This document shows positions 15,702 through 52,895 of a stretch of 64,000 bases of DNA, one piece after another (the first letter of the stretch is position 1; each line of letters starts with the position of its first letter). The DNA comes from Eubacteriales bacterium (lineage in GTDB: Bacteria > Bacillota > Clostridia > Oscillospirales > CAG-272), in NCBI GenBank assembly GCA_045643285.1, contig JAZUKN010000102.1:109996-173995 (forward strand), in the 5' to 3' direction. The notes below the pieces were generated by a model that saw only the letters and a list, made by a program, of their open reading frames with translations, was not told the DNA's origin and searched no databases. Position numbers and translations under genes: made by a program.

Positions 15702-15962
15702 GTGAGTCAGTCTTTCTGTAAACCAACGGATCGAAATAAACCCGTTTATCACGTCACGATAAGTGAAAAGATAAAAAATTACCGCCATGAAAACAAGCTG
15801 ACTCAAAGCGAGTTCGGACGGCTGATCGGTGTGTCTGCTCAGGTGGTATGTAAATGGGAGCAGAATATCTGTTATCCCGATATAATATTTCTGCCGCATC
15901 TTGCACGCAACTTAAGCTGTACGACCGATGATTTTTTCGAAAAACAAGAAACCGGCAAATGA
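15702..15962 (+). CDS. XRE-family helix-turn-helix transcriptional regulator
   Basis: HTH_3 signature KLTQSEFGRLIGVSAQVVCKWEQN. The GTG start is uncertain because no ATG lies upstream of the HTH. Confidence 0.65.
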   Translation: MSQSFCKPTDRNKPVYHVTISEKIKNYRHENKLTQSEFGRLIGVSAQVVCKWEQNICYPDIIFLPHLARNLSCTTDDFFEKQETGK

Positions 15963-16009
15963 AATTTTCCCAATTTCAATTAACGGTAAAGGTTTTTTCG
16001 GATAAAGTC

Positions 16010-16039
16010 TTGACGGAATACAAAACGGTATGATATAAT
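16010..16039 (+). promoter_or_regulatory. sigma-A-type promoter of the candidate small RNA
   Basis: TTGACG (16010-16015), 18-nt spacer ending in TGa, TATAAT (16034-16039). Confidence 0.6.
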
Positions 16040-16044
16040 ACTTT

Positions 16045-16210
16045 TGCGACACAATTTAATAATTTTATCACTATGTAAGTGTGTGTTTTTTTGTTTTCGG
16101 CAAAAACGCATACTCTGTTTTTCGCATACTATCATAGTGAGAAAAAATTGTGTCGCAGCAATAGGAGTTATGCGTTTTTCAGTGTGTAGCTTCGGCTACG
16201 CACTTTTTTA
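16045..16210 (+). ncRNA. candidate small structured RNA or leader (unclassified)
   Basis: It begins just after the -10 element. Nested helices are 16045-16056/16146-16157 (12 bp perfect) and 16068-16075/16133-16140 (8 bp perfect). A competing helix is 16102-16115/16165-16179. It ends with a UUCG-loop terminator. Confidence 0.45.
16183..16209 (+). terminator. intrinsic terminator
   Basis: Stem TGTGTAGC/GCTACGCA (one G-U pair) with a TTCG tetraloop, followed by CTTTTTT. Confidence 0.75.
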
Positions 16211-16246
16211 TTCCACTCAGTTGTGACTTTATAAACGAACAAGTGA

Positions 16247-16275
16247 TTGACTCGTCGGCATAATTCTGTTATAAT
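16247..16275 (+). promoter_or_regulatory. sigma-A-type promoter of the ABC exporter operon
   Basis: TTGACT, 17-nt spacer ending in TGt, TATAAT. It lies about 100 nt upstream of the 16374 ATG. Confidence 0.6.
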
Positions 16276-16373
16276 TTTCTCGAAAAACGAAATAATTCCG
16301 TGAGCCGATTGTTTATTATTATAGGAGAGAATATCGCACTCGGTAGAAATATACGAAAAAAGGAAATAACATA

Positions 16374-18218
16374 ATGACAAAAAAAGTAAAAACGAAAAAA
16401 GAGAAGAAAGAAAAAAAGAAAAAGCTCCCTCTCAAAAAAACGCTTGCAAACAATATCTTTGCTCTTCGAGTTTTATGGCTCGCCGCCCCTGTTTACATAT
16501 TTGTCTATCTCGGCTCATCGGTCATATACGGGATCCTCAATTTTTTGAGCGACACATATCTCCTCCGCGTGATCGTCAATAATGCCGAGAACGGTGTGGC
16601 GTGGCAGAAGACGGTCATATACATTGCCGTGATCGGAGCAGCTACCTTACTTACCGATTTGACTCTTGGCTGGTTTTTCAATGTCCAGTCCCCGAAATAC
16701 GATATTCGCATTTCATCTTATATCAAAGGACTGTTATATCGCAAGGCGGCAAAAGTCGAGCTTGCCTGTTACGAAACTCCGTCGTTCTTTGATAAATATG
16801 TCAAGGCGATGGACGAAGCGAACGAAAGAGTTAGAAAGGTCATGTACACTCTCGACGACCTTATTGCCCGTGTAGTCGCGCTGTTTGCAAACTCATTTTT
16901 GCTGTTTGTGATAGACCCGTGGCTGATACTGTTCGGACTTTTTCCTCTTGTACTCGGGATTTTCAGACGGATGCAGAACGTCGAAAGCCACAATTTTGAA
17001 ATGGCGAAAAAACCGATCGAGAGACGCCGTAACTACATCCGCCGCACATTCTATCTGAACGAATACGCAAAAGAAATGCGCGTCGGCGGCATATACCGCT
17101 GTATGCTTGAAAACTTCCGCGACAGCATAGACGATTTCCGTGCCGAAATGAAAAAGTACGGCTTCAAGATCGCCGCTCTCGATTATATACGGAGCATAGG
17201 GCTTGAAGTTGTGACCGTCCTCGGTGCGATGCTTTACGCGGCATGGCGTGCATCGAACGGTTACATAGGACTCGGAGACTGTCTCGTCGTGCTCGGCTCG
17301 ATCGGTACGATCTCGTTCTGCCTCAACAATCTTATACAGAATCTTGCAGAGTTCGGCGAACACGCGCTGTACCTTGAAGATGTGCGGTTTTTCCTCGAAT
17401 ATGAGCCGAAGATCACGTCCGGAGTTGACGCTAAACCCGCACACGCAGGAGACGTGAAGCTCGAAAAAGTCTCTTTCCGCTACGAAGGAAGCGAGACTGA
17501 CGCTCTGCACGACGTCAATATGACATGGAAGAGAGGAGAGAGGATCGCGCTCGTCGGCAAGAACGGCTCAGGGAAAACAACGCTTGTCAAGCTGCTTCTG
17601 CGACTATACGATCCTACCGACGGACAGGTGACGCTTGACGGAGAAGATATACGCTCACTTGATCTTGACTCGTGGCACGACAGCTTTGAGACTGTCTTCC
17701 AGGACTACAAGATGTTCGCCATGACCGTACACGACAATGTACTGCTCCGGGTGTCACAGGACAAAGATGCTGACAAAAAACGTGTGGAAGAAGCTCTCCG
17801 TCAGAGCGGCGCGTGGGACAAAATTTCCGGTCTTGAAAACAAAGCGGATACCATGCTGACACGCGAATTTGACGACAAAGGCACAAATCTGTCTGGCGGA
17901 GAAGCGCAGAAGGTTTCTCTTGCACGGGTGTTCGCGCATCCGACGCCGTTTGTGATCCTTGACGAGCCGTCGTCCGCACTCGATCCTATCGCAGAATACA
18001 CGATGTTTGAAAATATGATGCGTGCGACAGAGGGACGTAGCGTTATTTTCATCTCTCACCGCCTTTCGTCCGCTGCCCTCGCCGACAGAGTATTTCTTAT
18101 GGAAGACGGCACGATCACCGAGTCCGGAACGCACAAGGAACTCATGGAATTAAACGGTAAATATGCCGAAATGTTCAAAAGGCAGGCGGAAAACTATCTC
18201 GGAGGTGAGCAGATATGA
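16374..18218 (+). CDS. ABC transporter ATP-binding/permease fusion (type I exporter half-transporter)
   Basis: N-terminal 6-TM domain and C-terminal NBD (GKNGSGKTT, LSGGEAQKVSLAR, ILDEPSSALD). It has a Lys-rich N-terminal tail. Confidence 0.9.
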   Translation: MTKKVKTKKEKKEKKKKLPLKKTLANNIFALRVLWLAAPVYIFVYLGSSVIYGILNFLSDTYLLRVIVNNAENGVAWQKTVIYIAVIGAATLLTDLTLGWFFNVQSPKYDIRISSYIKGLLYRKAAKVELACYETPSFFDKYVKAMDEANERVRKVMYTLDDLIARVVALFANSFLLFVIDPWLILFGLFPLVLGIFRRMQNVESHNFEMAKKPIERRRNYIRRTFYLNEYAKEMRVGGIYRCMLENFRDSIDDFRAEMKKYGFKIAALDYIRSIGLEVVTVLGAMLYAAWRASNGYIGLGDCLVVLGSIGTISFCLNNLIQNLAEFGEHALYLEDVRFFLEYEPKITSGVDAKPAHAGDVKLEKVSFRYEGSETDALHDVNMTWKRGERIALVGKNGSGKTTLVKLLLRLYDPTDGQVTLDGEDIRSLDLDSWHDSFETVFQDYKMFAMTVHDNVLLRVSQDKDADKKRVEEALRQSGAWDKISGLENKADTMLTREFDDKGTNLSGGEAQKVSLARVFAHPTPFVILDEPSSALDPIAEYTMFENMMRATEGRSVIFISHRLSSAALADRVFLMEDGTITESGTHKELMELNGKYAEMFKRQAENYLGGEQI

Positions 18219-20089
18219 GTAAAGCAAAAGAAAAGCGAAAGCGTCAGAAGCTTTCATCCATTTTCGGAAACAACTTCTATATGCTCAAAAAAATATACCG
18301 CATGGTGCCGGAATATTTATTCTGGACTGTCATCAATATTTTTTGGTGGGCATTCGCACATTCAACAGACGGTATTTACACTTACTATATTCTTAACTCG
18401 GTCGGAAACGGCTCTCCTTTTATAAGGACCGCTAAAATAATCGGAATCCTTGCGCTCGTCAAACTTATTATTTACGGATCAGAAAAACTGTACGGATATA
18501 TAAAACATCCGCTGATCAAGCAAAAAGTTCATTTGAAAATGCACGAAGAACTGTTTTCGATTGCCCGCAGTGCCGATCTTGCCGCATTTGACGATCCCGA
18601 ATACTATAACGATTTCGTCTGGGCAATGAACGAGTCCGACACCCGTGCGCTCGGTGTCGTTGCGACGACCGAAAAGTTTTTCAATCACTTCCTTGCATTC
18701 GGAACACTGACGACTTTGCTGGTTTCCATTGATTACCGCATCGCTATATTGATCGTTGTGTCAGGTATTCTCAGTATGATACTGAGGCAGGCAGGAAACA
18801 AGGTTTGGTATGAGCAGAAAAAGAAGCAGAATCCGCTCTGGCGCAAGGACGCCTACATAAACCGCGTTTATCATCAGGCGGACTATGCAAAGGAGTTGCG
18901 GATCACGCACGCGAACGATCTCATAATGCGTGAGTTCGACGAAAACAACGAAAAACTCGAAGAAACCGCTACTCATTACGGCAAGCGGTATTTCATGATC
19001 TATAAAGTTTTCGGCTCGATACTGTCGGAAGCTACATACTTCGGGATCATGCTCTTTATGTTCTCGGAGCTGATGAACGGTAAAATCGAGATCGGCGGTT
19101 TTGCGGCGGCTGTTTCTGTAATATGGCAGGTGCGCTGGCTGTTTACCGATATGATAAACAGTCTGACCGAATACTCCGAGCATTCACTGTATATCGAAAA
19201 ATACCGTGAGTTCATCCGTCAGAAGCCGACTCTCTCCGGCGGAAAAATGATACCGTCGTCTTTTGATTCAATGGAAGTGCGCGACGTGTCGTTCTCATAC
19301 GAATTTACGAATCACGCGAGATACGAATATCACGACAAGGATGACGAAAAGCCGGAAGAAACGCCGATAAAAGAGGCACTGCGTCATATTGACCTGTCGA
19401 TCAGGCGCGGAGAGAAGATCGCATTCGTCGGCTACAATGGAGCCGGCAAAACAACGCTCATAAAACTCCTGCTCAGACTGTATGATCCGACTGACGGGGA
19501 AATACTCTATAATGGCAAACCGCTTCGGGATTATAACTCGGACGGGATGCGCTCAAAGATCGGTGTAGTATTCCAGGACTTCAAAATTTACGCGGCAAGT
19601 ATCGCCGAGAACGTTATTAACGGGATATATGACGAAAAATCGGACAAGGAGACCGTGCTGTCCGCCCTGCACGCCGCCGACTTTGACGATAAGCTGTCGT
19701 CACTGCCCGACGGTATCAATACTGTCCTGACACGCGAATTTGACGATAACGGAACAAATCTTTCCGGCGGCGAGGCGCAAAAAGTAGCTATAGCAAGAGT
19801 GTTTGCACACCCGTTTGAACTGATCATTATGGACGAGCCGTCATCCGCGCTTGACCCGATGGCTGAATATAACCTCAACCGCTCTATTATGGAGAATGCG
19901 GCGGACAGGACTGTGATTTTCATCTCTCACCGCCTGTCGACCACAAAAATGGCGGACAAGATATATATGCTTGACGGAGGCAGAATAATCGAATCCGGAA
20001 CGCACGATGAACTCATGGAGCAAAACGGCAAGTACGCCGAGATGTTCACGCTTCAAGCGGAGAAGTACAAGAAACAAGAGGAAGAATAA
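18215..20089 (+). CDS. ABC transporter ATP-binding/permease fusion (partner half-transporter)
   Basis: Same architecture (GYNGAGKTT, LSGGEAQKVAIAR, IMDEPSSALD). The start overlaps the upstream stop (ATGA), implying a heterodimer. Confidence 0.9.
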   Translation: MSKAKEKRKRQKLSSIFGNNFYMLKKIYRMVPEYLFWTVINIFWWAFAHSTDGIYTYYILNSVGNGSPFIRTAKIIGILALVKLIIYGSEKLYGYIKHPLIKQKVHLKMHEELFSIARSADLAAFDDPEYYNDFVWAMNESDTRALGVVATTEKFFNHFLAFGTLTTLLVSIDYRIAILIVVSGILSMILRQAGNKVWYEQKKKQNPLWRKDAYINRVYHQADYAKELRITHANDLIMREFDENNEKLEETATHYGKRYFMIYKVFGSILSEATYFGIMLFMFSELMNGKIEIGGFAAAVSVIWQVRWLFTDMINSLTEYSEHSLYIEKYREFIRQKPTLSGGKMIPSSFDSMEVRDVSFSYEFTNHARYEYHDKDDEKPEETPIKEALRHIDLSIRRGEKIAFVGYNGAGKTTLIKLLLRLYDPTDGEILYNGKPLRDYNSDGMRSKIGVVFQDFKIYAASIAENVINGIYDEKSDKETVLSALHAADFDDKLSSLPDGINTVLTREFDDNGTNLSGGEAQKVAIARVFAHPFELIIMDEPSSALDPMAEYNLNRSIMENAADRTVIFISHRLSTTKMADKIYMLDGGRIIESGTHDELMEQNGKYAEMFTLQAEKYKKQEEE

Positions 20090-20553: not shown

Positions 20554-20635
20554 TGCGGGAAACGGGACTTGAACCCGTACAGTGTGAACTACACGCCCCT
20601 CAAACGTGCGCGTCTGCCAGTTCCGCCACTCCCGC
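20554..20635 (-). tRNA. tRNA-Leu (anticodon GAG)
   Basis: Hand-folded. Acceptor GCGGGAG/TTCCCGC, anticodon stem CACGT/GCGTG, loop TTGAGGG, long variable arm, T arm ACGGG-TTCAAGT-CCCGT, discriminator A. CCA is not encoded. Confidence 0.85.
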
Positions 20636-50586: not shown

Positions 50587-50659
50587 AGGGGTATAGCTCA
50601 GTTGGTAGAGCAGTGGTCTCCAAAACCACGTGTCCTGAGTTCGAGTCTTAGTGCCCCTG
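50587..50659 (+). tRNA. tRNA-Trp (anticodon CCA)
   Basis: Hand-folded. Acceptor AGGGGTA/TGCCCCT, anticodon arm GTGGT-CTCCAAA-ACCAC, T arm CTGAG-TTCGAGT-CTTAG, discriminator G. Confidence 0.9.
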
Positions 50660-52620: not shown

Positions 52621-52895
52621 AAAAAAGTCCTTCGGCTGAAATATGCCGGAGGACGGATTTCTCCGCGGTACCACCTCGGTTGCCTTACCGTTTCCGATAA
52701 GACCGCTCAAAGCACACTGATATGTGCCGGACACTGTAACGGTTGTCATCCGACGCAGCCTACTCGTTTCCTTTCGGTGCGCTGCTACGGAAATGTATTC
52801 GCACGAGCCTATCCCATGACTTGCACCGACCGTCACTTCTCTGTGGGGAATCGTCTCGCCTACTCTTTTTCCATCGCCGCATTTACTATTTATAT
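52621..52895 (-). promoter_or_regulatory. T-box riboswitch leader, specifier UAC (tyrosine)
   Basis: Minus strand features are the AG bulge AGAGAAG, distal loop GGUGCAAG and specifier loop GAA-UAC-A (codon = plus 52795-52797). The T-box sequence AACCGAGGUGGUACCGCGG is at plus 52663-52681. The terminator is at 52627-52636/52645-52654 followed by U6. Confidence 0.85.

What the first reader, a model, noticed from the sequence alone, without database searches (positions are those of the whole stretch)
16010..16210. Self-contained promoter / structured RNA / terminator unit between an XRE regulator and an ABC exporter pair
A strong promoter (TTGACG, 18-nt spacer, TGaTATAAT) fires into about 165 nt with no credible ORF. 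The first nucleotides (16045-16056, TGCGACACAATT) pair perfectly with 16146-16157. Nested inside is a perfect 8-bp helix (16068-16075/16133-16140). A third, topologically competing helix joins 16102-16115 to 16165-16179 (14 bp with one bulge). An octamer, CGCATACT, is repeated at 16107 and 16122. The unit ends in a UUCG-tetraloop terminator plus U6. A second consensus promoter (16247-16275) then serves the ABC genes. The unit is therefore either an independent sRNA or a conditional-readthrough leader stacked on a constitutive promoter. I do not recognise it as a known riboswitch class. A long hairpin closed by the 5' and 3' ends is loosely reminiscent of 6S RNA, but I cannot support that identification.
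Basis: seen in the sequence. Interest (0 to 1): 0.6.

Follow-up and report, generated by a model that had tools for sequence, protein, structure and literature searches.

The report
Uncatalogued attenuator leader RNA family
The flagged stretch is one copy of a conserved, about 165-base folded leader RNA, absent from Rfam, that gut Clostridia place with its own promoter in front of many surface and accessory genes. It is built as a relay of competing helices that decides whether transcription stops at its terminator or reads on, but what flips it is unknown.

Summary

**What it is.** The unit is neither 6S RNA nor any Rfam 15 family. It belongs to a large conserved RNA family:
- 50 distinct full-length members came from the first pattern scans.
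- 82 more came from species-representative Clostridia MAGs.

**Architecture of each member.**
- A sigma-70 promoter fires directly into a 5'-anchored rod (P1, a 5' bulge containing AUA, then P2-P3).
- Five segments follow that pair in a chain: seg0:seg1 (apical hairpin), seg1:tail, tail:seg3 (antiterminator) and seg3:seg4 (terminator).
- All four helices and the rod show compensatory changes. The core pair of seg1:tail is U-A 41, U·G 25, C-G 16 and C·A 0.

**Cis-regulatory placement.** In 60 of 67 loci an RBS and ORF begin within 60 nt of the terminator. The downstream genes are heterogeneous: BspA-type LRR proteins, lipoproteins, Zn-ribbon proteins, XRE regulators and this type of ABC exporter.

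**The window copy.** It is atypical because a second strong promoter sits between the terminator and the ABC genes.

**Open points.** The trigger is unknown. A trans-acting role for the terminated RNA is not excluded.

**Verdict.** This is a new family that uses known anti-antiterminator/antiterminator/terminator logic.

The parts
16010..16039 (+). Sigma-70 promoter with extended -10: TTGACG, an 18-nt spacer, TGaTATAAT. The inferred transcription start is about 16045-16047, the first bases of P1.
   Evidence: scores it 11/12 with a TG extension. All 49 relatives with enough upstream sequence have a -10 box ending 2-7 nt before P1, and 40 of them carry TG. The start site is inferred, not measured.
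16045..16057 (+). P1 5' strand (UGCGACACAAUUU). It pairs with 16145-16157.
   Evidence: Family-wide P1 is 98-100% paired, and 9 of 10 pairs show compensatory changes.
16058..16062 (+). Hinge: a 5-nt bulge on the 5' strand (AAUAA) with nothing opposite. The AUA is conserved.
   Evidence: Folds. In the family the bulge has 4-10 nt on the 5' side containing AUA, against 0-4 nt on the 3' side. AUA is visible in alignments A3 and A5.
16063..16077 (+). P2 5' strand (UUUU, a bulged A, then UCACUAUG). It pairs with 16133-16144.
   Evidence: The rod arms co-evolve: cognate arms give -45.4 kcal/mol against -19.7 +/- 6.5 for non-cognate arms.
16078..16093 (+). seg0: the P3 5' strand (AGUGUGUG) plus the P4 5' strand (UUUUUUUG). 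It pairs either with copy 2 (forming P3) or with seg1 (forming the extended apical hairpin, 'register A').
   Evidence: the two registers are isoenergetic, -55.3 against -55.1 kcal/mol. The seg0:seg1 helix is 87-92% paired with compensatory changes (UA 60 to CG 9; AU 36 to GC 11).
16094..16100 (+). P4 apical loop (UUUUCGG). Most relatives have a UNCG-type loop, c(UUCG)g or c(UACG)g.
16101..16115 (+). seg1: CAAAAACGCAUACUC, which contains repeat copy 1 (CGCAUACU, 16107-16114). It pairs with seg0 or with the tail (anti-antiterminator helix).
   Evidence: Duplex with the tail is -17.1 kcal/mol. The core pair covaries as U-A 41, U·G 25, C-G 16, C·A 0 (P=2.5e-6).
16123..16130 (+). Repeat copy 2 (CGCAUACU), which is the P3 3' strand.
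   Evidence: P3 cognate pairing is -11.0 against -4.8 kcal/mol for non-cognate.
16133..16157 (+). P2 3' strand (16133-16144) and P1 3' strand (16145-16157).
16158..16163 (+). Linker GCAAUA. The family consensus is A-R-C-A-A-N, conserved in length at about 6-8 nt.
   Evidence: Alignments A3 and A5.
16164..16179 (+). Tail (seg2): GGAGUUAUGCGUUUUU. It pairs either with seg1 or with seg3 (antiterminator).
16183..16193 (+). seg3: the terminator's 5' half plus three loop bases (UGUGUAGCUUC). It pairs with the tail at 16164-16174 as 11 bp including 5 G·U, forming the antiterminator.
   Evidence: The nascent RNA up to 16194 folds with this hairpin. In the family it is 94-95% paired with compensatory changes. 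Its energy is -12.7 and -13.4 kcal/mol in the two sets, against -7.0 and -6.0 with shuffled tails.
16181..16209 (+). Intrinsic terminator: a 10-bp stem with a UUCG loop (16181-16204) and U6 (16204-16209).
   Evidence: In the family it is 92-99% paired with compensatory changes.
16247..16275 (+). Second sigma-70 promoter (TTGACT, a 17-nt spacer, TGtTATAAT) serving the ABC genes. It is specific to this copy and is not part of the family.
   Evidence: It is absent in L001, where the RBS follows the terminator directly. The UTR behind it is unstructured (z 0.12).
16374..20089 (+). Downstream cargo: two ABC exporter genes for half-transporters (614 and 624 aa, 4-base overlap of the ORF coordinates) with a Lys-rich N-terminus.
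   Evidence: The same exporter type follows the leader in L001 (63% identity) and L305.

Best explanation
The unit is a cis-acting transcription-attenuation leader from an uncatalogued RNA family of gut Clostridia.

**Transcription and the rod.** A strong sigma-70 promoter starts transcription at the first base of a long rod: P1, a 5-nt AAUAA bulge, then P2-P3.

**The two registers at the rod's apex.**
- Register A: seg0 pairs with seg1 in one continuous hairpin that hides seg1.
- Register B: the second CGCAUACU repeat takes seg0's lower half to form P3. That leaves only a weak UNCG-capped P4 and exposes the first repeat as a single-stranded toehold.

**Readout at the 3' tail (GGAGUUAUGCGUUUUU).**
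- OFF: if seg1 is exposed it captures the tail (anti-antiterminator, -17 kcal/mol). Capture is probably by a fold-back pseudoknot at the bulge hinge. The UUCG terminator then forms and the transcript ends at U6 (16209), giving an RNA of about 165 nt.
- ON: if seg1 is hidden, the tail pairs with the terminator's 5' half and loop (antiterminator). RNA polymerase then reads on into the next gene.

**This copy.** Read-through adds to transcription of the ABC exporter pair, which also has its own promoter at 16247-16275.

**Shown and inferred.**
- Shown: the promoter and terminator motifs, all five helices with covariation, the near-degenerate registers, and the leader position in relatives.
- Inferred: the transcription start site, the order of folding, that the seg1:tail helix forms in cis, and that a signal sets the register. 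That signal could be a small molecule, a protein, or transcription kinetics, and it remains unknown.
For: **No known family.** There is no Rfam 15 match at gathering score or at E<=10.

**Leader position.**
- The closest ABC-operon relative (L001) has the same element, with the terminator followed directly by GGAGG and ATG.
- An RBS-preceded ORF starts within 60 nt of the terminator in 60 of 67 loci.
- A -10 box ends 2-7 nt before P1 in 49 of 49 members.

**Family size.** 50 distinct full members came, and 82 more from species-representative genomes.

**Covariation on A3 and A5.**
- P1 is 98-100% paired, with 9 of 10 pairs compensated.
- The terminator is 92-99% paired.
- seg1:tail is 88-98% paired. 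Its core pair is UA 37, UG 23, CG 17, with none unpaired.
- The antiterminator is 94-95% paired, with 6 compensated pairs.
- seg0:seg1 is 87-92% paired, with UA to CG and AU to GC changes.
- Controls with the 3' partner slid by 1-3 columns pair only 29-68%.

**Core-pair test.** Among 82 members found by a scan that allowed all four combinations, C·A is 0, against 7 of 33 in chance matches (P=2.5e-6).

**Energies.**
- The antiterminator is -12.7 and -13.4 kcal/mol in the two sets, against -7.0 and -6.0 with shuffled tails.
- Window registers A and B are -55.1 and -55.3 kcal/mol. The nascent RNA folds into the antiterminator.
- The register energy difference is within 2 kcal/mol in 21 of 50 members.

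**No leader peptide.** No ATG column is shared by as many as 15 of the 50 members.

**Strand.** G·U pairs, the promoter and the terminator all point to the + strand.
Against: **No expression data.**
- Only DNA metagenomes hold the locus.
- One metatranscriptome holds short contigs of relatives.

**This copy is atypical.** A second strong promoter lies between the terminator and the ABC genes, so its cis effect may be small.

**Orphan copies.**
- Three of the 50 members in the first set are followed only by a convergent gene (L048, L050, L065).
- My ORF rule found no downstream ORF for 11 of 78 members in the second set.
- L074 carries three tandem units, each with its own promoter. A purely cis leader does not need that arrangement.

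**Thermodynamics.** The terminator is about 5 kcal/mol more stable than the antiterminator. Read-through therefore needs a kinetic window.

**Pseudoknot geometry.** The seg1:tail helix crosses the rod. It requires a sharp fold-back that I could not model.

**No signal identified.** The downstream genes share no pathway, so they give no clue to a ligand.
Confidence: 0.7

Rival explanations
1. A trans-acting 'sense' small RNA. The terminated ~165-nt rod RNA accumulates. Its exposed loop (seg1, the key) pairs in trans with the tail (the lock) of nascent leaders of the same family. That forces termination, giving dosage or feedback control of a dispersed set of accessory genes. The window copy, with a separate promoter for the ABC genes, would be mainly such an sRNA gene.
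For: - Orphan copies are followed by a convergent gene (L048, L050, L065).
- Tandem units each have their own promoter.
- The window copy has a second promoter after the terminator.
- seg1:tail pairing is almost as good between non-cognate members as within one member: -15.5 against -16.4 kcal/mol, and -14.3 against -16.2. The key is therefore universal rather than private.
- A rod of about 30 bp places seg1 far from a tail that is joined by only a 6-nt linker.
Against: - The cis copy of seg1 is always at a higher local concentration than any trans copy.
- The hinge bulge, the two arm lengths (P1 12-18 bp, P2+P3 14-22 bp) and the linker length are all conserved. That fits a fold-back cis pseudoknot and is not needed for a trans key.
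- The register-shift apparatus that hides seg1 makes sense mainly for a cis decision.
- Most members sit directly in front of an ORF.
Confidence: 0.15
2. A constitutive 'leaky terminator' cassette. The promoter, rod and terminator would only set a fixed low read-through level and stabilise the 5' end. No signal would be involved.
For: - The terminator is thermodynamically dominant.
- The cargo genes are heterogeneous, with no common pathway.
- No ligand or factor has been identified.
Against: Four mutually exclusive helices (seg0:seg1, seg1:tail, tail:seg3, seg3:seg4) are each maintained by compensatory changes. The two apical registers are also close in energy. That is far more machinery than a fixed attenuator needs.
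Confidence: 0.08
3. A DNA-level element. The inverted repeats would be operators for the neighbouring XRE regulator, or the palindromic arms of a mobile or recombination site.
For: - An XRE gene ends 48 bp upstream of the promoter.
- The element travels with varied cargo and forms tandem arrays.
Against: - P1 changes sequence while keeping complementarity. One pair is GC 36, CG 21, AU 7, UA 6.
- G·U pairs occur only when the + strand is read as RNA.
- The repeat arms are 88 bp apart.
- An XRE gene adjoins only 2 of 50 members, and in L049 it lies downstream as cargo.
- Promoter and terminator are conserved at fixed positions.
- There is no second copy in the 64-kb window.
Confidence: 0.03
4. 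6S RNA or another housekeeping RNA.
For: It has a long hairpin closed near the 5' end and is about 165-170 nt long.
Against: - There is no RF00013 hit, nor any Rfam hit, even at E<=10.
- The 3' end (tail and terminator) lies outside the rod.
- There is no central open-promoter-like bubble, only a 5-nt bulge.
- The element occurs in tandem and sits before variable cargo genes.
Confidence: 0.01

Closest known systems
Anti-antiterminator / antiterminator / terminator attenuators of Firmicutes, for example the Bacillus subtilis pyr operon leaders controlled by PyrR (from established knowledge)
   Same: Both use a three-layer logic in which an upstream element sequesters the 5' strand of the antiterminator so that an intrinsic terminator forms. 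Both are promoter-proximal leaders directly before the regulated ORF.
   Different: - There is no PyrR-type binding loop and no link to nucleotide genes.
- The anti-antiterminator here is a long-range pairing between the apical loop and the 3' tail that crosses a 5'-anchored rod of about 30 bp.
- An extra layer (seg0:seg1, and a duplicated octamer that shifts the register) hides the anti-antiterminator strand.
- The effector is unknown.
Transcriptional OFF riboswitches in which a ligand-stabilised pseudoknot holds the antiterminator strand, that is, pseudoknot-type aptamers with terminator expression platforms (from established knowledge)
   Same: - Pairing of a loop with a 3' tail competes with an antiterminator.
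- An intrinsic terminator abuts the RBS.
- Unpaired hinge and linker nucleotides are conserved.
- Helices covary strongly.
   Different: - It matches none of the 4227 Rfam 15 models.
- The regulated genes have no shared metabolic theme.
- No ligand pocket can be pointed to.
- Orphan copies and tandem copies with their own promoters exist.
Countertranscript-driven attenuation of plasmid rep genes (pT181, pIP501/pAMbeta1; from established knowledge)
   Same: In both, an RNA-RNA interaction with a nascent leader decides between antiterminator and terminator. In both, the interacting sequence is displayed on a stable stem-loop.
   Different: - There, the regulator is an antisense RNA made from the opposite strand. 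Here the complementary 'key' lies on the same sense transcript.
- No minus-strand promoter was found in the element.
- Action in trans is not shown here.
   Same: Both are rod-like RNAs of similar size.
   Different: - There is no model match.
- The 3' end is not part of the closing stem.
- There is no central bubble.
- It is not a single housekeeping gene.
'Rod-shaped leader RNA attenuator' families noted earlier in this scan (AI notes e1-2356002, e1-4977606, e1-2822605, e1-4647710, e1-4108837, e1-3469984)
   Same: They share the overall description: own promoter, a 5' rod, a terminator with competing helices, a position before lipoprotein, LRR and accessory genes of gut Clostridia, and absence from Rfam.
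   Different: - Sequence-level identity with those families could not be checked. The by-sequence look-up found nothing and the notes carry no sequences.
- The phage association claimed there was not reproduced for this sub-family.

Membership tests
6S RNA (RF00013) | Match to the Rfam covariance model | tested here: not met
   There is no hit at gathering score over the whole window or at E<=10 over 15950-16400.
6S RNA (RF00013) | 5' and 3' ends form the closing stem around a large central bubble | tested here: not met
   The rod closes at 16045/16157, but 52 nt (linker, tail and terminator) lie 3' of it. The largest interruption is a 5-nt bulge.
Any described riboswitch or leader class in Rfam 15 | Covariance-model match | tested here: not met
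   The only weak hits are chance matches: plant miRNA precursors, a CRISPR repeat model, a C/D-box snoRNA (sR35) and DUF2815 RNA, all at E>=0.5 and far below their gathering scores.
Terminator / antiterminator / anti-antiterminator attenuators | Intrinsic terminator at the 3' end of the leader | tested here: met
   The terminator is 92-99% paired with compensatory changes.
Terminator / antiterminator / anti-antiterminator attenuators | An alternative helix that uses the terminator's 5' strand (antiterminator) | tested here: met
   The tail pairs with seg3 in 94-95% of cells, with 6 compensated pairs. Its energy is -13.4 kcal/mol against -6.0 with shuffled tails. The nascent window RNA folds this way.
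Terminator / antiterminator / anti-antiterminator attenuators | A third helix that sequesters the antiterminator's 5' strand (anti-antiterminator) | tested here: met
   seg1 pairs with the tail. The core pair is UA, UG or CG and never CA (P=2.5e-6).
Terminator / antiterminator / anti-antiterminator attenuators | Regulated read-through in response to a defined effector | not testable with these tools
   No usable RNA data exist, and no effector was identified.
Leader-peptide (ribosome-mediated) attenuators | A conserved short ORF with a start codon in the leader | tested here: not met
   No ATG column is shared by as many as 15 of 50 members. The reading frame across the conserved block differs between members (window against L048/L049).
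Antisense (countertranscript) attenuation systems | A promoter on the opposite strand that produces an antisense RNA | tested here: not met
   No minus-strand promoter-like site lies within 16010-16210. This is a consensus scan only.
C4 antisense RNA / sRNA-Xcc1 (RF01695, RF02221) | Covariance-model match | tested here: not met
   Neither family is among the hits at E<=10.
Independent small RNA gene | Own promoter and terminator, and no dependent downstream gene | tested here: inconclusive
   This holds for the window copy (second promoter) and for L048, L050 and L065. It does not hold for 60 of 67 relatives, where the ORF abuts the terminator.

The most novel reading that the evidence does not exclude
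The family would be a new kind of self-addressed riboregulator. The terminated rod RNA displays a universal key (seg1) that pairs in trans with the lock (the tail) on nascent leaders of every family member in the cell. The pool of terminated leaders would then set read-through for a whole dispersed regulon of surface and accessory genes. Orphan copies, such as this one with its separate ABC promoter, would serve as dedicated regulator genes.

An alternative reading is equally unexcluded. The fold-back pseudoknot could be the aptamer of a new riboswitch class for a global signal.
Probability: 0.15. Interest if true: 0.9.

Novelty: new variant of a known kind. Interest (0 to 1): 0.62.

Why it matters
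Gut Oscillospiraceae, Acutalibacteraceae and related uncultured Clostridia place this one leader in front of a wide range of genes. These include BspA-type LRR proteins, lipoproteins, cell-wall hydrolases, Zn-ribbon membrane proteins, XRE regulators, a methylase and ABC exporters.

It may therefore be a major regulatory device for the variable, host-facing part of these genomes. It is not in Rfam, and two full-text searches found no description of it.

The design is unusual in three ways. The rod is anchored at the RNA's 5' end. A duplicated octamer shifts the register of the apical hairpin. The apical loop pairs with the 3' tail across the rod. All of this can be tested directly with in vitro transcription.

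Finding the trigger would reveal one of two things. It could be a new riboswitch ligand or regulatory factor. Or it could be RNA-RNA control between sense transcripts, which would be new.

Tried and rejected

**Structure-aware alignment.** mafft-qinsi was unusable because MXSCARNA is missing. I did not build a covariance model, because MAFFT cannot align the variable P2/P3 arms structurally. Rod pairing was tested instead with cognate against non-cognate duplex energies.

**RNA evidence.**
- Only DNA metagenomes hold the locus.
- One metatranscriptome holds short contigs of relatives. One of these runs from the tail through the terminator into an RBS and ATG. That is weak evidence, because DNA may be present in the library.
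- A second attempt with a human-gut member covered only the downstream gene.

**Pairing of the P1 5' strand with the terminator's 5' half.** Rejected: about half the cells at two positions are A·C mismatches.

**XRE as the dedicated factor.** Rejected.

**Phage carriage.** Not reproduced.
- The pattern has 0 exact matches in IMG/VR.
- Two unverified virome scaffolds match, and the one I examined has bacterial-looking neighbours, a Lon-type protease and a hydrolase.

**An SD/start codon in the tail (GGAGUUAUG).** Rejected: the spacer is 2 nt and the AUG is not conserved.

**Literature.** Two full-text searches found no description of this element.
Full report
**1. Observation.**

- The promoter is TTGACG, an 18-nt spacer and TGaTATAAT at 16010-16039.
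- A perfect 12-nt inverted repeat lies at 16045-16056 and 16146-16157. At one mismatch allowed, these are the only two matches in the window.
- A nested 8-bp helix joins 16068-16075 to 16133-16140.
- A crossing helix joins 16102-16115 to 16165-16179.
- A UUCG-loop terminator at 16181-16204 is followed by U6.
- A second promoter lies at 16247-16275.
- The + strand RNA folds at -55.5 kcal/mol, against -33.2 +/- 3.7 for shuffles (z -5.97).

Neighbouring genes:
- Upstream on the same strand are a HIT-family gene and an 86-aa XRE/HTH_3 gene (15702-15962).
- Downstream is a pair of ABC exporter genes (16374-18218 and 18215-20089).

ClpX in the window is at best 74% identical to a Clostridia MAG from roe-deer colon. 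The locus is held only by gut metagenomes. The host is therefore an uncultured gut Clostridia lineage.

**2. It is not a known RNA.**

cmscan against all 4227 Rfam 15 families gives nothing here at gathering score. At E<=10 on 15950-16400 it gives only chance hits. That excludes 6S, every riboswitch model, and C4/sRNA-Xcc1.

**3. It is conserved and sits in a leader position.**

The only close relative of the ABC exporter is in L001, at 63% identity. L001 carries a homologous element: promoter, a P1 with compensated changes, a different but still paired P2, and the same apical block, tail and terminator. There the terminator is followed at once by GGAGG and the ABC start codon.

Pattern scans built on the conserved blocks gave these results:
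- 11 genome loci and 105 metagenome loci.
- 50 distinct full-length members after filtering.
- 82 more members, confirmed by nhmmer, from a final degenerate scan of species-representative genomes.

Every member with enough upstream sequence (49 of 49) has a -10 box ending 2-7 nt before P1, and 40 of them have a TG extension. The transcript therefore begins at the rod.

In the second set an RBS-preceded ORF starts within 60 nt of the U-tract in 60 of 67 loci.

No ATG column is shared by as many as 15 of the 50 aligned members. The frame over the conserved block also differs between members. There is no leader peptide.

**4. Anatomy.**

Individual folds and alignments A3 and A5 give the following plan.

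*The rod*
- P1 is 12-18 bp with consensus GCNACACAA.../...UUGUGUNGC.
- An asymmetric hinge follows. It has 4-10 nt on the 5' strand containing AUA, and 0-4 nt opposite.
- P2+P3 is 14-22 bp and variable in sequence.

*The five-segment chain*
- seg0 is the P3 5' strand plus a U-run.
- A UNCG loop follows.
- seg1 is AAAAA(C/U)GCAU plus a variable CUCC-like end. It contains repeat copy 1.
- A U-tract follows, then repeat copy 2, which is the P3 3' strand.
- The rod's 3' arm follows, then a linker ARCAAN.
- The tail is GGAG..AUGC(G/A)UUUUU.
- seg3 is the terminator's 5' half plus loop.
- seg4 and the U-tract end the unit.

*Covariation*

| Helix | A3 (50 sequences) | A5 (77 sequences) |
|---|---|---|
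| P1 | 96-100% paired | 98% paired, 9 of 10 pairs compensated |
| Terminator | 92% paired | 95-99% paired |
| seg1:tail | 89% paired | core 98%, outer 4 bp 88% |
| tail:seg3 (antiterminator) | 89-95% paired | 94-95% paired |
| seg0:seg1 | not counted | 87-92% paired |

- In A5 the seg1:tail core pair is UA 37, UG 23 and CG 17, with none unpaired.
- The antiterminator has several compensated pairs. One pair is CG 40, UG 21, UA 8.
- seg0:seg1 shows UA 60 to CG 9 and AU 36 to GC 11.
- Controls with the 3' partner slid by 1-3 columns pair only 29-68%.

*The core-pair test*

- Members show U-A 41, U·G 25, C-G 16 and C·A 0.
- Chance matches show C·A in 7 of 33.
- The hypergeometric probability is 2.5e-6 and the Fisher probability is 1e-4.
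- A member found by BLAST alone (L158) shows the same compensation, AAAAGUGCAU with GUGCAUUUUU, and has a UACG loop.

*Cognate against non-cognate duplex energies (kcal/mol)*
- Rod arms: -45.4 against -19.7.
- P3: -11.0 against -4.8.
- P3 5' strand with copy 1: -7.8 against -6.1, mean rank 6.7 of 50.
- seg1:tail: -16.4 against -15.5. This pairing is shared across the family rather than private to each locus.

**5. Mechanism.**

In the window RNA the two apical registers have nearly equal energy.
- Register B (P3 with copy 2) with the terminator is -55.3 kcal/mol.
- Register A (seg0:seg1 as one hairpin, copy 2 bulged) with the terminator is -55.1 kcal/mol.
- Across 50 members the difference is +2.3 +/- 3.0 kcal/mol, and it is within 2 kcal/mol in 21.

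The nascent transcript up to 16194 folds with the tail:seg3 antiterminator. At full length the terminator state is about 5 kcal/mol better.

The most economical reading has three steps.
- *Step 1.* seg0:seg1 forms first and hides seg1.
- *Step 2.* Copy 2 can displace copy 1, which exposes it as a toehold.
- *Step 3.* An exposed seg1 captures the tail, so the terminator forms. A hidden seg1 leaves the tail free to make the antiterminator, so polymerase reads through.

The helices and their mutual exclusivity are shown. The folding order, the cis fold-back and the existence of a trigger are inferred.

The seg1:tail helix crosses the rod. In cis it needs the P2-P3 arm to fold back on P1 at the bulge. 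Three observations fit that: the conserved hinge, the similar and narrowly distributed arm lengths, and the conserved 6-8-nt linker. They do not prove it.

**6. Regulated genes.**

The cargo is heterogeneous.
- BspA-type LRR proteins follow 11 of 64 leaders.
- About half of the downstream proteins have hydrophobic N-termini, and at least 19 of 67 have a lipobox.
- Zn-ribbon membrane proteins number 4 or more.
- XRE regulators number 3, plus L049.
- There are RCC1-repeat and SHOCT proteins, a CHAP/SH3 hydrolase and an EcoRI-type methylase.
- There are small ORFans and a recurring unnamed protein of 103-114 aa (MEKTG...DYDNFC...).
- ABC exporters with the same Lys-rich N-terminus follow the leader in the window, L001 and L305.

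No metabolic theme points to a ligand.

**7. What is special about the window copy.**

A consensus promoter lies 38 nt after the U-tract, followed by an unstructured UTR of about 95 nt. The ABC operon therefore does not depend on read-through. This copy mostly yields the terminated RNA of about 165 nt.

Several other observations keep a trans-acting role alive.
- Three members of the first set are followed only by a convergent gene (L048, L050, L065).
- L074 has three tandem units, each with its own promoter.
- The seg1:tail 'key' is universal across the family.

I rate this trans reading at 0.15.

**8. Rejected readings.**
- 6S RNA is rejected (see the membership tests).
- XRE operators or a DNA palindrome are rejected. 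Complementarity is conserved rather than sequence, G·U pairs occur on the + strand only, and XRE adjoins 2 of 50 members.
- A leader peptide is rejected.
- Phage carriage was not reproduced for this sub-family.

**9. Relation to earlier notes of this scan.**

These notes were read after I had derived the attenuator model. Several follow-ups describe 'rod-shaped leader attenuator' families before lipoprotein, LRR and accessory genes of gut Clostridia that are absent from Rfam. My results agree with that picture.

I could not verify that it is the same family at sequence level. The notes are unchecked AI leads, and they are not used as evidence.

Two full-text literature searches found no description.

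**10. Verdict.**

This is a real, strongly supported structured RNA. It is a member of a large uncatalogued leader family that uses anti-antiterminator/antiterminator/terminator logic, with an unusual register-shift front end.

The trigger, and whether seg1:tail acts in cis or in trans, remain open.

I score interest at 0.62. The family is not surprising in kind, but it is new, widespread and directly testable.

Noticed in passing
L074:4724-5294 (- strand); the same array is in L142: Three tandem units of promoter, rod and terminator precede one 88-aa ORF. Each unit has its own TTGAAAGCAA...TGTGATATAAT promoter. The first unit has a divergent apical loop and tail that still match each other (GAUC:GAUC instead of CUCC:GGAG).
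   Followed up: partly
L001:2470-2690: Just upstream of the leader in the closest relative lies a separate mini-unit. It has a promoter, a strong RBS, a 23-codon ORF (MMTNLFKNLHISDVVSFACVCVS) and two terminator-like hairpins. It could encode a small Cys-rich peptide next to the ABC exporter. The window has no counterpart.
   Followed up: no
window 16374-16440; L001:2968-3010; L305:508-744: The ABC exporters that follow this leader in three loci share an unusual Lys/Glu-rich N-terminal extension (MTKKVKTKKEKKEKKKKLP...) before the first membrane helix.
   Followed up: no
L059, L077, L103, L109, L114, L135 and L146; a related form in L058, L081 and L112: A recurring unnamed protein of 103-114 aa (MEKTG..FV.FPRV...DYDNFC.DM.ADRQFIEDY...) follows the leader. 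The one copy scanned (L059) has no Pfam match. It is one of the most frequent cargo genes of the leader.
   Followed up: partly
L158 (MT835845.1):2040-2260: An 'UNVERIFIED Bacteriophage sp.' virome scaffold carries a family member before a lipoprotein gene. Its neighbours look bacterial: a Lon-type protease C-terminus and a metal-dependent hydrolase. They have the same order and sizes as the two ORFs at the start of L001.
   Followed up: partly
window 52646-52886 (-), 50587-50659 (+), 20554-20635 (-): These are the only Rfam hits in the window: a T-box leader (109.7 bits) and two tRNA genes. They are ordinary features.
   Followed up: no
X21 metatranscriptome contig, laid at window 16171-16212: An RNA-library contig of a relative runs from the tail through the terminator and on into AAGGAGG...ATGAAG. 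That is what a read-through transcript would look like. DNA carry-over cannot be excluded.
   Followed up: partly
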